Positions 14,108 through 18,598 of a stretch of 64,000 bases of DNA are shown here, in pieces (positions within the stretch are counted from its first letter, which is position 1; the number at the start of each line of letters is the position of its first letter). The position numbers and the translations under genes were made by a program. The notes beneath the pieces were generated by a model. It was not told the origin of the DNA. It ran no database searches and saw nothing but the letters and a program-made list of their open reading frames with translations. Source of the stretch: Psilocybe cubensis (Eukaryota); the NCBI GenBank assembly GCA_017499595.2, contig CM038999.1, forward strand, positions 3,844,001 to 3,908,000. Direction: 5' to 3'.

Positions 14108-16672
14108 CTAATCGCAGATTAGCTCGTCAGGATCATAAACAACTTCAGCGGGACCCCTATTGAAAATCAGTAAATCTGAGAGAGTTTTCGAAGTAGATTA
14201 CAGTTACCTTCGTTCGATGCCCTTAACACCCGTCGTAACTTGTCAGTTAGATTAGGCAAATAAAAGGTTATGAATTCATACATTTTCCTTCCATGCAACC
14301 TGAGCCTTCAATTCAGTTAACCCGAACGACAATACGATTTCAAATTCGATTCGGTAGTAAGGTATTCCAGTTTTAGAGTTGACGTATTGGCGCAAAGGGA
14401 CATTCGATGTATCGGCCGTTACGTGACAAAGAACACGGTACATGTCTGTTGCTCATGTTCGTAGGTTATCATATAGTTCATTGAACATATTCATAAACGG
14501 AGTCTCACCAGTCTCTTCATCTGTCCAGCGTGGGTTACTTTTGGTCCCTTGGTAGCACATAATTTCCTCGTCTAGAATTTGGAATGCGGAGGAGTTCTTC
14601 GAGTTCCTCACATAAGAGTGTCTGTATTCCTCTGTCTCAGACACTTTGGTATCCTTTATATTTGATAAACGCAAGAAAAAAAAGATTAGTTACAAAGAGA
14701 CGTGCCTTAGGAAGTATAGCATCAAATCCAACGGGAAGCATGATCCTGCCATCCAGACAAGTGTATTGAGAGTGCATTCGCGCAACGTGTTCGGGATCCG
14801 TAGAAACATATATCCGACTGAATTCTATGCCGTATGCATACTTTGAGATCCTAGCAGCCACGAAATGGTCAAGATAGAACGAAACAGCTCCATCTGCAAC
14901 TGCTTTGTTGCTTTGAAAGTAGTTAGCACAGATTTCATATGGATATATATACAGAATCAAACACGCATCCAACACGTACACATGGCTATCAGGGCGGCAT
15001 ATATCCAAGGTATTGTCAGAGAGCCTTGCCTTTAAATTTGTGAACAGCCAATCGCTAGCTGCGAATCCCCCAACAAGAAAAACGGACTGTAAGCATACAT
15101 TTCCATTTAGTACACTCAATCATATGGAGAAGGTAATCAAACTTAACGGCAATTTTAGTCGTACAAGCAGCACGTTGCTCCTCGATGGTATCAACGATGC
15201 ATTGAATAGATGGTTCAAAGAAAGACGCTACGTCTGAGCTGTGAATAAAATTAAGTGGTATTCGAGCGGAACAAGCTGCATGTTTGCCAATCACGTACCC
15301 AGAAAGTTTGAGCTGCCCATTGCGGATGTTAAGAGCGAGATCTTTGTCCCTGATAGTTCCGAACTTGATAAATTGAGTTTCGTCGTCACTGCGGAATCTC
15401 AATTTGGTGGTCTTGTCAAAGCAATCAGTGATATAGGGCACATCTTCTGCGAAGCGTGAATCCTTAAGGAGTTCTATGGTTATCACAAAGAAAATCACTG
15501 AACAAAGAACCCAAGATAATAATAGCCTGTAAGACACTTACTTTCGAGGAACTCCCTGGCGTGGTTGCTTATGAAAACCGATCCTTGGAAATGGCCTGCA
15601 ATACCAAAGTAAGTTGATGGACATCATCGCACAAAAATCAGGCGGCATACACTCCGGTGCAAATATTTCCTCGAATGATTGAGCGTTTTTCGATGTTTGT
15701 TTATAAGCAGAGATGTCGACCGTGCCACCGCCGGCATCGACAATGAGAATCCCTTTGCCTTGCTATGAAGGAAATAAAATATCAATCTTTGTGCTGCATA
15801 TATTTGTGATGAACCGTTTGCTGACCTTCATGGCGTCAATAGTCAAACCTTTCTGAATACAAAAGTGTAAACTGGCTTCTCCTTCGGTAACAAAGGAGAG
15901 TCGTTGCTGGCCGGCCGGAGTGTTGGGTATCAAACCCGCTCTGACTGCAGCTCTGCGCATATAGCTCTGTTGTGTGCCTTCCCACCCATTTGGATGCGTG
16001 AGCACAAAGTCCGTACGCCCCTCCAGATTTTTCCACATCTCTGCCCCATTAGGGTATGTATCTTCGATGTAGGTCCGGGCGCATTGATGGAGGTACCGCA
16101 TAAAATCGCCAAAAACATCTATTATGGTTTTTCCCTCGGGCAGGGGTGGAATAGGGTGGCCGGTTAGTAGAGACGATCCAGAGCTGGTGGTTTGGGGTCG
16201 CAAATGGAGTTTGAACCTGCAGCGAAGGCGGACGTGAAAGGGATGCCAATGGATGATATAACAAAGGGACGTACCACTCCGCCTTTGTCCATCCCTCATC
16301 CTCCGCGTCCGCTTCTATTCCTTCACGCACAGCTTCTGCACCAACAGCGCGCACGTCTCCTTGTTTATCATAGTAGATTATGGTCGGTATCTTAGAGTCA
16401 CCACCGACGTGTTCTTGCGCGGGAAATCTGCGTTCAAACGACGGTGGGCAAATGCGTTTTGTAAGGCATAGAAGACGCTTACCTGGTAACTCCTCGAATC
16501 TCAGGGACCTCTCCAGGATCCAAAATGCTGTACAACAGGATGAAAAACGTCAATAATGGCAAAAAATGCGCACTAACCTGTACGAAATACCACTAAATGT
16601 AGTCCCGATGTCGAAAGCGAGTACGAGCTTTCGTTGGGTTCCGTCGTACCGAGGCCTGTTCAAGGTGGTCAT
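14108..16672 (-). CDS. Hsp70-family protein, HSPA12-like (fungal expanded type); multi-exon
   Basis: N-terminus RKLVLAFDIGTTFSGISY, then FKLHLRP, FVLTHPNGWEG, FVTEGEASLHFC, ILIVDAGGGTVDISAY, VFLVGGFAASDWL and NKAVADGAVSFY; ends GPAEVVYDPDELICD*. Confidence 0.9.
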
Positions 16673-16980
16673 AGTTGGGTTACAATATTTGATAAAGAGT
16701 TGAGGGCACCTGTGTCTTTCGTCTCTTTAAATATATGAAAATTTTCGGCCAGACAAAACAAGCTAAAGGATGAGATTCAACAAAGAATAAAAACAGAACC
16801 CCAGAGGCCTTAATTGGTGGATACAAAGGATCTGCGGCCCACCTCCAAGCCATCATTCGTCAATGATCGGATAGATAAAGTGACCAACCGGAATGAGCCA
16901 CTATATATGACCGGTATAAAAGCCAAGGGAATCCTGGCGAAATATCCAAATCACCACCACACACGCAACACGGTTTGACG

Positions 16981-18598
16981 ATGCAACTCGAGAAAATACC
17001 GCTCATTGGCAAAATGTTCGGGCGGAATAATGGTCAGGGGGTCAATGCCTCCACAGATGAACTAAACCCAACGCTCCAGTATCCAATGTCAGAAGTCAGC
17101 GCGGCAGGCGTGGAAGAAGTCCAAGGTGGCGAATCTACCTCGGACAGTGGCACAACGCTAGACACCACAGAAAACATCGATGACAAGGAAAAAACACAGG
17201 AGGGAACATCTAACAAGAAACGCCGTCGCAATAAACAAACACAGGCGCGAGTGAATGCTATTAAACTGCAGGAGGAGGAGAAAAGGTCCAAAGAATTGGC
17301 AGAGGAAGTGGAACGGTTGAAGAATGAACGGAAATCCATGCAATACGAATTGGCGACGTTACAAAATACAGTATCAGAACACTCCAACACAAATCGTCAA
17401 CTCGAGATTGAGATTTGTCGCCTGCGCGAAGAAGAACGCAACATTATTCGTGACTTGAAAGACGCTTACCAGGAAATAGAACAATACAAGCAACGGGTGT
17501 CAATGAAGGATAGCAAAGTGGCTTTACTGCAAGAAAAACTAAACAAATCGATCTCAAAAATCGACGAATTGACAACCTTGTTACAGGAACGAGCAACTGA
17601 GATAAAGGGAGTCCAGACGTTTTTGACCACAGCCGATCTGTACTCCGGCGCCGATATCATTCAGATGGTGGATGGGTTGAATATGGACATCTTCCACACA
17701 GCAGCTTCTGTAGCCGAAATTTTTGAGCAGCCTACGGAGGCGGATGCAGCTGCCAGGCTGACCAGCAAAGACCGTGAAGAGCGTCTAGAATTTGGGGCTG
17801 AACGGTTGAAATCAATTCCTGAGGCAATCGGTGAAAGGTTATACACGCACCTTGCTAACAAATGCACAGAACTGCATGAAGACCCTTTCCCACTTCAAGT
17901 CGCTATCCAAGCTTATCTAGCGCATTTCTGTACGCAACGTGTTCAAATATTTTCTGGCGAGAGCGCGAAATCAGCGTTTGACGATTTATACGGCAGGATA
18001 AGATCAGCCGGTGAGTCATAAACGTACTGTGTTGTATGCATTACGCGTTCTAATTGTTCAAACAGAGGTTCAAGCGATTGCTGGAAGATGACGTTCCATT
18101 GCAAGCACACATTCACATGGCCCCAATAGCGATGAAGATGTCGAAATGGTGGCGAGAGTAATGTACAGTTTGCTGTATTTTTGTGGTTGGACGGGGTCTG
18201 GCCCAGCGTCAGAAAGGTCCATCGCATCTATTCAAACAAAGGTGGACGCAATTGTGAAGCAGGCGACGCAGTTGAAGAAGGCGATGCATGAAGGGATCAC
18301 AACAGCCGATATGGAGGTCTTTGTCGTGCGTTGTGGAGAATCCTTCAACCACACCGTCATGGAGGACAGCTACGGTGACAATAAGTCAAAGAAGCGCAAT
18401 AACAAGGCAAGCTGCGTACTTTGTCCAGTAGGAATGGGCCTACGGAAGATCACAACCAATAAGGAAGATCGCACATCGACTACAACCCTCCTCTTCAAGC
18501 CCAAGGTTGCGTTGCTTGCCGTGTTAAACAAGGAAGAGCCTGCCCATGGATGCACGGAGGGAGGTAGGATCAATGACGATATTGAAATGCGTCATTAA
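16981..18598 (+). pseudogene. Coiled-coil protein with GrpE-like C-terminal motif; exon 2 carries an in-frame TGA (nonsense allele, pseudogene or sequence error)
   Basis: Exon 1 is a long coiled coil followed by FLTTADLYSGADIIQMVDGLNMDIF. After the intron (GTGAGT...AACAG), exon 2 reads EVQAIAGR*RSIAS (TGA 18089-18091), in frame with the 18146-18598 ORF (MEVFVVRCGESFNHTVMED...VLCPVGMGLRK...LLFKPKVAL). Confidence 0.75.

What the first reader, a model, noticed from the sequence alone, without database searches (positions are those of the whole stretch)
14108..18598. Head-to-head HSPA12-type Hsp70 and coiled-coil protein with a GrpE-like C-terminus: candidate dedicated Hsp70/cofactor module
Seen: the two start codons (16672 minus, 16981 plus) are only ~310 bp apart, implying a bidirectional promoter. 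The partner has a long coiled coil and ends in EVFVVRCGESFNHTVMED-x-VLCPVGMGLRK-x-LLFKPKVAL. That pattern resembles the GrpE beta-domain (GxxFDPxxHEA...VxxVxxxGY...LRPAxVxV) and similar C-terminal domains of plant GIL1/IRKI and animal Mieap proteins. Established: GrpE is the nucleotide exchange factor of DnaK and organellar Hsp70, whereas eukaryotic cytosolic Hsp70s normally use BAG, Hsp110 or Fes1; HSPA12 proteins are atypical Hsp70s of unclear function. Inference: this is a dnaK-grpE-like gene pair in a eukaryote, possibly a signalling or non-self-recognition switch rather than a housekeeping chaperone.
Basis: partly seen in the sequence, partly recalled or inferred. Interest (0 to 1): 0.78.

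Follow-up and report, generated by a model that had tools for sequence, protein, structure and literature searches.

The report
Hsp70-like ATPase and GrpE-like partner
A mushroom gene pair joins an orphan HSPA12-type Hsp70 ATPase to a fast-evolving coiled-coil protein whose tail is predicted to fold like the co-chaperone GrpE, which suggests a dedicated helper for a chaperone class of unknown function; the copy in this genome carries a stop codon that other strains lack.

Summary
A 603-aa Hsp70-like gene (16672 to 14108, minus) is 100% identical to a protein that NCBI names 'Heat shock 70 kDa protein 12A [Psilocybe cubensis]'. It lies head-to-head, 308 bp away, with a two-exon coiled-coil gene (16981-18598, plus). 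The partner's last ~80 residues model confidently (pLDDT 86.7). In an all-against-all structure search of 48,161 PDB representatives, the four best matches are all GrpE beta-domains (Z 4.9, 4.4, 4.3, 2.8; the next, unrelated chain scores 2.7). Sequence evidence for GrpE is weak: there is no Pfam match, and hhalign gives P 0.009. The linkage recurs. Two independent metagenome organisms have an Hsp70-like gene beside the partner. In addition, 13 of 31 partner homologues share a contig with a close Hsp70 homologue. New here: the window's partner has an in-frame TGA at a conserved Trp, before the GrpE-like domain. Reads show TGA and TGG are both alleles in the species. Binding was not tested. This scan had already noted GrpE-like partners of HSPA12-type Hsp70s on other DNA (Naegleria, bacteria). 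I found no paper describing such a pair. Verdict: a real, probably functional Hsp70/GrpE-like module in Agaricomycetes, with a null allele here.

The parts
14108..16672 (-). HSPA12-type Hsp70-like ATPase gene with many introns and a 603-aa product
   Evidence: P0165 is 100% identical over the query exon and is named 'Heat shock 70 kDa protein 12A [Psilocybe cubensis]' by NCBI. tblastn maps P0165 residues 1-603 to 16672..14111. A family profile (A5) hits the DnaK nucleotide-binding domain 1dkg_D at E 4.1e-5. The phosphate-binding and adenosine motifs are invariant in 52 homologues.
16673..16980 (.). 308-bp divergent intergenic region, presumed to serve as a shared or bidirectional promoter
   Evidence: Read from the sequence: TATAAAAG at 16915-16922 lies 59 nt upstream of the partner ATG, and TATATTTAAA on the minus strand at 16735-16726 lies upstream of the Hsp70 ATG. 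Promoter activity was not tested.
16981..18010 (+). Partner exon 1. It encodes a low-complexity N-terminus with a basic cluster (KKRRRNK), a coiled coil (about residues 76-211, nt 17206-17613) and a conserved helical region that begins with the 'FLTTADLYSG' motif (residues about 205-343)
   Evidence: ORF. Weak coiled-coil Pfam matches. Homologues P0001-P0003 at E 5e-30 to 2e-20. F214, D219, M229, L233, N234 and F238 are invariant in 14 sequences.
18011..18065 (+). 55-nt intron of the partner (GTGAGT...CAG)
   Evidence: Removing it gives '...IRSAGEVQAIAGR', which is colinear with '...IRASEIQAVSGRWRAIT' of homologues. No sense-spliced RNA record was seen.
18066..18598 (+). Partner exon 2, encoding a helical hairpin and the C-terminal beta domain. 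In this allele it is separated from exon 1 by a stop codon
   Evidence: The piece 18092-18595 (168 aa) finds 237 representatives at E<=1e-3, mostly matching at their C-termini. The model has pLDDT 81.4 with H13-30, H38-66 and then five strands.
18089..18091 (+). In-frame TGA (codon 352) at the position of a conserved Trp. It is a segregating null or truncating allele
   Evidence: Homologues have W here. At 18091, contigs of run X5 read A, contigs of X7 and X10 read G, and 14 of 22 raw DNA reads of X13 read G.
18290..18550 (+). GrpE beta-domain-like C-terminal domain. The family motif is G..FD...MED.Y ... VLCT.GLGL ... LLKPKV.L
   Evidence: The model me3024484a695 has pLDDT 86.7. In the VIA-align search of 48,161 chains the top 4 are all GrpE: 9bls_B Z 4.9 / 4.4 A / 58 aa, 1dkg_B Z 4.4, 3a6m_B Z 4.3, 4ani_A Z 2.8. 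In pdb_via, 3a6m_A scores Z 4.6 with rmsd 2.7 A over 53 aa at 23% identity. hhalign against a GrpE alignment places G..FD..MED on G.PFDP..HEA with P 0.009.

Best explanation
The two genes form a conserved Hsp70/co-factor module of Agaricomycete fungi. The minus-strand gene encodes an HSPA12-type Hsp70-superfamily ATPase with intact nucleotide-binding motifs. The plus-strand gene encodes a roughly 520-aa protein built like an extended GrpE: a long coiled coil (presumed to dimerise), a helical region, a helical hairpin and a small C-terminal beta domain with the GrpE fold. By analogy with DnaK-GrpE, I infer that the partner's beta domain and adjoining helices dock on the ATPase's nucleotide-binding domain. 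There it would set the ATPase's nucleotide state by exchange or release. The long coiled coil and the basic N-terminus would place or scaffold the ATPase. The 308-bp divergent promoter region would keep the two co-expressed. Shown here: the gene structures, the fold prediction, the recurrent linkage and the allele. Inferred: dimerisation, binding, nucleotide-exchange activity and co-expression. In the haplotype of this window the partner is cut at codon 352 by a TGA, so this allele most likely makes no GrpE-like domain. Other haplotypes of the species keep TGG.
For: Fold evidence: the beta-domain model (pLDDT 86.7) was aligned to all 48,161 PDB representatives. Only 55 chains reach Z>=2, and ranks 1-4 are the four GrpE entries, each aligned on its beta domain (Z 4.9, 4.4, 4.3, 2.8). 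The first unrelated chain scores 2.7. The second-look alignment gives 3a6m_A Z 4.6, rmsd 2.7 A, 53 aa, 23% identity, with GrpE in ranks 1-3. With the 168-aa model, Foldseek's two best PDB rows are GrpE (E 0.1 and 0.22). GrpEL1 (9bls_B) is the one row of the 50 listed that aligns far beyond the helical hairpin: 104 aligned residues, model range 13-149, Z 5.5, rmsd 7.3. hhalign places the family motif on the GrpE motif in register (P 0.009).

Linkage evidence: in the window the genes are head-to-head. In metagenome locus L003/L004 (one organism, 97.7% identical copies) an Hsp70-like gene is also head-to-head with the partner homologue, about 570 bp apart, and a second Hsp70-like gene starts downstream. 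In L002 an Hsp70-like gene lies convergent, just downstream of the partner. L001 has no flank to judge. Of 31 partner homologues, 13 share species and exact contig length with one of the 120 listed Hsp70 homologues. Three of those contigs are small: 16.4, 40.8 and 55.6 kb. In Panaeolus both genes show a duplication at the base of the genus, and each daughter pair still shares a contig.

ATPase evidence: the motif residues D21/G23/T24/T25, T208-S213, D237-D244 and G378-F380 are invariant or nearly so in 52 homologues. The family profile hits the DnaK NBD at E 4e-5.
Against: All structure scores are modest (Z below 5, Foldseek E at least 0.1). The tool itself warns that Z under 8 can reflect a common arrangement. 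No sequence method places the partner in GrpE. Pfam found nothing for the window piece, and 1 of 115 family members gave PF01025 at E 0.0035. A domain profile found no GrpE among PDB sequences at E<=10. The hhalign score was reached by 6 of 150 column shuffles. The region between the coiled coil and the beta domain is far longer than in GrpE. The recurrent linkage comes mostly from related Agaricales, so much of it could be inherited synteny rather than selection for a unit. Contig sharing is a proxy for adjacency, not proof of it. No fusion with an Hsp70 was seen among the 10 longest family hits. The partner evolves about 3.5 times faster than the Hsp70 (median end branches 0.73 against 0.20). 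A stop allele also segregates, so the partner is dispensable at least in culture. No sense transcript of the partner was seen. The one probable RNA run shows a spliced antisense transcript instead.
Confidence: 0.45

Rival explanations
1. The partner is a coiled-coil scaffold or adaptor in the manner proposed for Mieap or plant GIL1/IRKI. It uses a GrpE-shaped beta domain as a generic binding module. It may recruit, inhibit or be remodelled by the neighbouring ATPase, but it is not a nucleotide-exchange factor.
For: The partner has a long coiled coil, a large extra helical region absent from GrpE, and a basic N-terminal cluster. The nearest named language-model clusters are MIEAP (0.79-0.80) and GIL1_IRKI_C, in one cluster together with DUF641 (0.77-0.84), in two separate queries. 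The GrpE His of the motif 'HEA' (recalled) is replaced by Met in the family consensus.
Against: The Atlas scores are below the tool's 0.9 threshold, so they count as leads only. Neither PF16026 nor PF24994 matched the window piece, nor appeared among the 25 (of 28) families listed for the 115 members. The conserved linkage with an Hsp70-type ATPase, together with a fold otherwise known from Hsp70 exchange factors, fits a nucleotide-state role more economically.
Confidence: 0.3
2. There is no functional coupling. The two genes are neighbours through inherited synteny in Agaricales. The GrpE likeness of an 80-residue beta domain is convergence or a modelling coincidence.
For: All fold scores are below Z 5. 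The sequence statistics are weak. Most linked cases come from one fungal order. HSPA12-like genes are numerous in these fungi: 898 of 1076 scored candidates had E<=1e-3.
Against: All four GrpE representatives take ranks 1-4 among 48,161 chains. Linkage persists even where partner identity has fallen to 25-47%. Linkage also persists in different orientations, head-to-head in L003/L004 and convergent in L002. Both genes duplicated in Panaeolus and stayed paired by contig.
Confidence: 0.15
3. The locus is decaying in this species. The partner is a pseudogene, and the pair no longer works as a module in Psilocybe cubensis, whatever it does elsewhere.
For: The TGA at codon 352 stands in the window and in run X5, and in 8 of 22 reads of X13. 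No protein identical to the partner was returned by the protein search. The only probable RNA contigs over the gene are antisense-spliced.
Against: The TGG allele is present in X7, in X10 and in 14 of 22 reads of X13. Apart from that one codon, the frame is open to the family's normal C-terminus. The Hsp70 gene is intact.
Confidence: 0.1

Closest known systems
GrpE / Mge1 / GRPEL1 (Pfam PF01025), the nucleotide-exchange factor of DnaK and mitochondrial Hsp70
   Same: The order of parts is the same: long helix or coiled coil, then helices, then a small C-terminal beta domain. The beta domain superposes on GrpE in four PDB entries. The motif G..FD...(M/H)E aligns in register. Like grpE beside dnaK in many bacteria (recalled), the gene sits beside an Hsp70-superfamily ATPase gene.
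   Different: There is no PF01025 match. The protein is about 520 aa against about 200. It has an extra conserved helical region of about 140 aa and a disordered, basic N-terminus. Its presumed client is an HSPA12-type ATPase rather than DnaK or mtHsp70. No mitochondrial targeting was examined. Exchange activity is untested.
HSPA12A/HSPA12B, atypical Hsp70s of animals
   Same: Source annotations name the window's ATPase and many homologues 'Heat shock 70 kDa protein 12A/12B'. It has an Hsp70-type nucleotide-binding domain. A 2026 review (PMC13580251, passages read) says that the function of HspA12 is unknown, that it lacks the helical lid, and that the family is greatly expanded in bivalves.
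   Different: I did not compare it with an animal HSPA12 sequence, so the label rests on the sources' names. Pfam PF00012 does not match at E<=0.01. No GrpE-like partner of HSPA12 is mentioned in the passages read.
Mieap/SPATA18 (PF16026) and plant GIL1/IRKI (PF24994, DUF641)
   Same: These are eukaryotic coiled-coil proteins with a conserved C-terminal domain. They are the nearest named clusters in the ESM Atlas for both the window's C-terminus and the Flammula homologue (scores 0.77-0.84).
   Different: Neither family's Pfam model matched the window piece or appeared among the 25 of 28 families listed for the 115 members. The Atlas scores are below the tool's threshold for more than a lead. 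Homology was not tested by profile-profile comparison, because I had no sequences of these families.
Bacterial Hsp70-like ATPase followed by a small coiled-coil protein
   Same: In 17 of 32 bacterial loci holding a relative of the fungal ATPase (23-29% identity in those rows), a same-strand ORF of 219-333 aa starts at the ATPase's stop. It has an N-terminal coiled coil and a C-terminus that hhalign puts on the GrpE beta domain (P 0.0011, 56 columns).
   Different: Fungal and bacterial partners are not detectably alike in sequence (HMM E>=2; hhalign E 0.19). The bacterial genes are co-directional and operon-like, whereas the fungal genes are divergent. None of the 8 such partner ORFs scanned matched Pfam GrpE at E<=0.1. 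The bacterial partner's fold was not modelled here.

Membership tests
GrpE (PF01025) | Match to the Pfam GrpE model above its gathering score | tested here: not met
   The window C-terminal piece gave no Pfam family at E<=1. Of 115 family members, 1 gave PF01025, at E 0.0035.
GrpE (PF01025) | Compact C-terminal beta-sheet domain with the GrpE fold | tested here: met
   The model has pLDDT 86.7. Ranks 1-4 of 48,161 chains are GrpE beta domains, at Z 4.9 (rmsd 4.4, 58 aa), 4.4 (5.5, 59), 4.3 (3.1, 53) and 2.8 (4.4, 59). In pdb_via, 3a6m_A scores Z 4.6, rmsd 2.7, 53 aa. The scores are modest.
GrpE (PF01025) | Long N-terminal helix pair and four-helix bundle formed in a dimer | tested here: inconclusive
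   A coiled coil is suggested only by weak Pfam coiled-coil matches. A helical hairpin (H13-30, H38-66) precedes the beta domain. One alignment to GrpEL1 spans helices and beta domain (104 aa, Z 5.5, rmsd 7.3). Dimerisation was not modelled.
GrpE (PF01025) | Conserved sequence motif G-x-P-F-D-P-x-x-H-E-A at the start of the beta domain (seen in alignment A8) | tested here: inconclusive
   The family consensus is G..FD...MED. hhalign aligns it in register at P 0.009, but 6 of 150 column shuffles reach that score. The profile search of PDB sequences found no GrpE at E<=10.
GrpE (PF01025) | Binds the Hsp70 nucleotide-binding domain and accelerates ADP release | not testable with these tools
   This needs biochemistry or a complex structure.
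Hsp70 superfamily, HSPA12 type | Actin-fold/Hsp70 nucleotide-binding domain with phosphate-1, phosphate-2 and adenosine motifs | tested here: met
   The family profile A5 hits the DnaK NBD (1dkg_D E 4.1e-5, profile positions 225-404 against DnaK 187-372). NCBIfam gives a weak match to the 'molecular chaperone' model NF008673, E 3.7e-6, far below its cut-off. The motif residues are invariant. The motif names are recalled.
Hsp70 superfamily, HSPA12 type | Match to Pfam HSP70 (PF00012) | tested here: not met
   No Pfam family at E<=0.01 for P0165.
Hsp70 superfamily, HSPA12 type | Specific kinship with animal HSPA12A/B rather than other atypical Hsp70s | not tested
   This rests only on the names given by NCBI and UniRef. 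No animal HSPA12 sequence was compared.
MIEAP (PF16026) / GIL1_IRKI_C (PF24994) | Match to the family's Pfam model | tested here: not met
   The window piece matched neither. Neither appears among the 25 of 28 families listed for the 115 members. The Atlas cosine scores of 0.77-0.84 are leads only.

The most novel reading that the evidence does not exclude
HSPA12-type Hsp70s, whose function and co-factors are unknown, have their own ancient class of GrpE-derived coiled-coil partners. On this reading the fungal family found here, the small coiled-coil genes behind Hsp70-like genes in bacteria, and possibly animal Mieap and plant GIL1/IRKI are all branches of that class. Eukaryotic cytosol would then use GrpE-type regulators after all, and Mieap- and GIL1-type proteins would act through an Hsp70-family ATPase.
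Probability: 0.2. Interest if true: 0.85.

Novelty: new variant of a known kind. Interest (0 to 1): 0.62.

Why it matters
GrpE-type exchange factors are textbook partners of bacterial and organellar Hsp70s. Cytosolic eukaryotic Hsp70s are thought to use BAG, Hsp110 and Fes1 instead. HSPA12-type proteins are described in a 2026 review as functionally unknown. A conserved, genomically linked GrpE-fold partner gives that orphan class a concrete, testable co-factor: binding and nucleotide-release assays, plus knock-outs of either gene. It also offers a natural experiment, because TGA and TGG alleles segregate in one species. If the weak links to Mieap and GIL1/IRKI hold, the idea would reach well-studied animal and plant proteins.

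Tried and rejected
- Complex prediction of the ATPase NBD with the partner C-terminus: the job was not folded because of a rule of the tool, so there is no result either way.
- Whole genome of the window: none is held, so paralogous loci in this genome could not be searched. The window itself holds no second copy of either gene.
- My own splice-site dynamic programme for the Hsp70 gene gave poor models. I replaced it by mapping the database protein P0165.
- The profile of the whole partner against PDB sequences gave only coiled-coil noise. The domain-only profile gave no GrpE at E<=10.
- VIA-align with the 168-aa model was swamped by helical-hairpin matches.
- Metagenome scans with the large alignments failed for lack of a conserved stretch. 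A 5-sequence alignment worked but gave only 4 short loci.
- Rosetta-stone fusion: none of the 10 longest family hits carries an Hsp70 domain. Two of them (P0089, P0078) look like unrelated repeat proteins.
- PADLOC has no defence-system model for either protein or for the bacterial relatives.
- The fungal C-terminal HMM against 1189 ORFs of the bacterial loci found nothing below E 2.
- Sequencing runs: no RNA holder is listed. X10 is only guessed to be RNA.
- RNA editing of TGA to TGG is rejected, because G is present in raw DNA reads.
- Literature: searches for HSPA12+GrpE, HSPA12+Basidiomycota, GrpE/Mieap/GIL1, GrpE-like/HSPA12A/SPATA18, atypical Hsp70/GrpE-like/gene neighbourhood, 'protein 12A'+Agaricomycetes+Hsp70 and DUF641+GrpE found no paper describing such a pair. 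For these I saw listings only, apart from passages of PMC13580251. Supplementary files were not consulted.

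
Full report
**What is there.** The window is fungal DNA with short introns. One exon of the minus-strand gene is 100% identical to a 603-aa protein that NCBI names 'Heat shock 70 kDa protein 12A [Psilocybe cubensis]' (P0165). The whole protein maps onto 16672 to 14111, with the stop at 14108-14110. The plus-strand ORF starts at ATG 16981. 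The start codons are 308 bp apart, and each has its own TATA-like element in that space (read). The window holds no second copy of either gene. No whole genome is held for it.

**Partner gene model and the stop codon.** Exon 1 (16981-18010) runs into a GTGAGT donor. A 55-nt intron ending in CAG at 18065 puts exon 2 in the frame of the C-terminal ORF. Full-length homologues from Galerina, Flammula and others are colinear across this junction. They read '...SE.QAV.GRWRAIT...' where the window reads '...GEVQAIAGR-stop-RSIAS'. Codon 352 (18089-18091) is therefore a TGA in place of a conserved Trp. The product of this allele would end after 351 residues, before the domain the finding is about. Read through, the protein would be 520 aa.

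Laying public runs on the locus shows the stop is a real allele. Contigs of run X5 have A at 18091. Contigs of X7 and X10 have G. In the raw genomic reads of X13, 14 of 22 reads have G and 8 have A. G is present in DNA, so this is allelic variation and not RNA editing or an assembly error.

**The partner family.** The 168-aa piece after the stop finds 237 cluster representatives at E<=1e-3, 28 of them at E<=1e-10. Most match at the C-terminus of proteins of 400-800 aa. The shared architecture has five parts:
- a variable, low-complexity N-terminus with a basic cluster;
- about 130 residues of coiled coil;
- a conserved helical region opening with FLTTAD.YSG..I..MVE.LN.EIFQ;
- the RWRAIT segment;
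- a C-terminal domain with consensus G..FD...MED.Y ... VLCT.GLGL ... LLKPKV.L.

Named members come from Agaricales, with single members from Boletales and Polyporales. Pfam has no model for the family.

**Is the C-terminus GrpE-like?** AlphaFold2 with the family alignment gave pLDDT 81.4 for the 168-aa piece, showing two helices and then a beta domain. For the last 87 residues alone it gave pLDDT 86.7.

Foldseek found nothing at E<=1e-3. Even so, GrpE chains were its two best rows for the long model (E 0.1 and 0.22). They were ranks 3, 9 and 14 for the short model.

The search that does not depend on Foldseek is clearer. Among 48,161 PDB representatives, only 55 reach Z>=2 against the beta-domain model. 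Ranks 1-4 are all GrpE entries, each aligned on its C-terminal beta domain:

| Rank | Chain | Protein | Z | rmsd (A) | Aligned (aa) |
|---|---|---|---|---|---|
| 1 | 9bls_B | human GrpEL1 | 4.9 | 4.4 | 58 |
| 2 | 1dkg_B | E. coli GrpE | 4.4 | 5.5 | 59 |
| 3 | 3a6m_B | Thermus GrpE | 4.3 | 3.1 | 53 (23% identity) |
| 4 | 4ani_A | Geobacillus GrpE | 2.8 | 4.4 | 59 |

The first unrelated chain scores 2.7. The second-look run gives 3a6m_A Z 4.6 at 2.7 A, with GrpE in ranks 1-3. With the long model, most of the listed hits cover only the helical hairpin. GrpEL1 is the one listed row aligned across helices and beta domain together: 104 residues, Z 5.5, rmsd 7.3.

These Z values are modest, and the tool warns about values under 8. 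The argument rests on specificity of rank, not on score.

Sequence support is weak. A domain profile finds no GrpE among PDB sequences at E<=10. hhalign against nine GrpE sequences, taken from five bacterial genomes, aligns G..FD..MED on G.PFDP..HEA at P 0.009. However, 6 of 150 column shuffles do as well. I conclude that the fold is GrpE-like, and that membership of the GrpE sequence family is not shown.

**Is the ATPase an Hsp70?** Pfam gives nothing at E<=0.01. A profile of 52 homologues hits the DnaK nucleotide-binding domain (E 4.1e-5). NCBIfam gives a weak match to a 'molecular chaperone' model. The residues of the nucleotide-binding motifs are invariant. The 'HSPA12' label rests on source names; I did not compare an animal HSPA12.

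**Does the neighbourhood recur?** A metagenome scan returned four short loci.
- L003 and L004 are one organism (97.7% identical). An Hsp70-like gene lies head-to-head with the partner homologue, about 570 bp apart. In L004 a second Hsp70-like gene starts about 820 bp downstream of the partner.
- L002 comes from another organism. There an Hsp70-like gene is convergent, just downstream of the partner.
- L001 has no flank to judge.

So all three independent contexts with enough flank, the window included, have the neighbour. Two of them are in the same divergent orientation.

As a wider proxy, I compared the partner homologues with the 120 listed Hsp70 homologues. Of 31 partner homologues, 13 share both species and exact contig length with an Hsp70 homologue. 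The genera or species are Galerina, Flammula, Hypholoma, Gymnopilus junonius, Agrocybe pediades (40.8 kb), Cyclocybe, Hebeloma (two), Panaeolus cyanescens (16.4 and 55.6 kb), Crassisporium and Pholiota molesta, plus one JGI contig. The other 18 cannot be judged, because only 120 of the 898 Hsp70 hits are listed.

Trees show three things. Both genes have a duplication at the base of Panaeolus, with each pair still on one contig. The Hsp70s on partner contigs fall into two clades, which fits the two flanking copies in L004. The partner evolves about 3.5 times faster than the Hsp70.

Caveat: most of this is one fungal order, so inherited synteny explains part of it.

**Bacterial parallel.** Earlier notes of this scan describe GrpE-like partners of HSPA12-type Hsp70s in Naegleria and in bacteria. 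I checked part of this. A scan of prokaryote genomes with the fungal ATPase alignment gave 32 loci. In 17 of them a same-strand ORF of 219-333 aa starts at the ATPase's stop. These ORFs have an N-terminal coiled coil and no Pfam GrpE match (8 such ORFs scanned). Their alignment matches the GrpE beta domain in hhalign at P 0.0011 over 56 columns, with the same shuffle caveat. The fungal and bacterial partners are not detectably similar to each other.

**Other leads.** The ESM Atlas names MIEAP and GIL1_IRKI_C, in one cluster together with DUF641, as the nearest annotated clusters for two different queries. The scores are 0.77-0.84, which the tool calls leads only. Neither Pfam model matched the window piece or appeared among the families listed for the members.

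**What is known.** A 2026 review states that HspA12's function is unknown, and the passages I read name no exchange factor for it. Seven full-text searches found no paper on an HSPA12/GrpE-like pair in fungi or elsewhere.

**Verdict.** The pair is real. The GrpE-like fold is supported at modest strength. The linkage recurs. Binding and exchange activity remain inference, since the one complex job was not folded (see Tried and rejected). In this particular haplotype the partner is a truncating allele. This is a new variant of the Hsp70/GrpE theme, and this scan had already seen it on unrelated DNA.

Noticed in passing
window 17274-18700 (joints 17797>17851, 17953>18028, 18369>18420): Contigs of run X10, which is only guessed to be RNA, skip three short stretches whose ends read CT..AC on the plus strand. 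These are GT..AG introns of the minus strand. They indicate a spliced antisense transcript across the partner gene. These contigs give no cover over 16900-17265, and no sense-spliced record was seen.
   Followed up: partly
window 4956-7049 (+) and 11612-13810 (+): Two long ORFs match the 'TPR-S' sensor-type tetratricopeptide model (E 6e-5 and 4e-9). The second ends 300 bp from the 3' end of the Hsp70 gene, convergent with it. Whether they relate to the pair is unknown.
   Followed up: no
window 56521-58230 (+): A WD40-repeat ORF of 569 aa lies in the only G+C-rich stretch of the window (0.59 against about 0.45).
   Followed up: no
window 19477-21004 (+): An ABC-type ATPase gene (PF00005, E 1.4e-9) lies directly downstream of the partner. 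In metagenome locus L004 a second Hsp70-like gene occupies that position instead.
   Followed up: partly
L005 4965-8720 and L013 4971-8681: In two cyanobacterial loci the Hsp70-like gene is followed directly by an ORF of about 650 aa. In L005 (the one scanned) this ORF gives SMC/Rad50-like coiled-coil matches. A radical-SAM (Fer4_12) gene follows in both. This layout differs from the actinobacterial one.
   Followed up: partly
L044 1258-1821 (+), L046 (minus strand) and L045 1441-1923 (+): The bacterial genomes searched for GrpE hold extra, divergent GrpE-like ORFs besides the canonical one (PF01025 at 31, 30 and 41 bits). In the two cases checked (L044, L046) they lie far from the Hsp70-like loci.
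   Followed up: no
proteins P0153-P0164 and others: Many Agaricomycete hits of about 1100 aa (one of 1589 aa) score about twice or three times what one copy of the query exon should. This suggests tandem HSPA12-like modules fused in one gene model or protein. The source's precomputed label PF27033 is not in the Pfam copy searched here.
   Followed up: no
proteins P0015 (1102 aa) and P0020 (718 aa): Two family members carry the whole partner module twice in tandem, as two matched stretches each.
   Followed up: no
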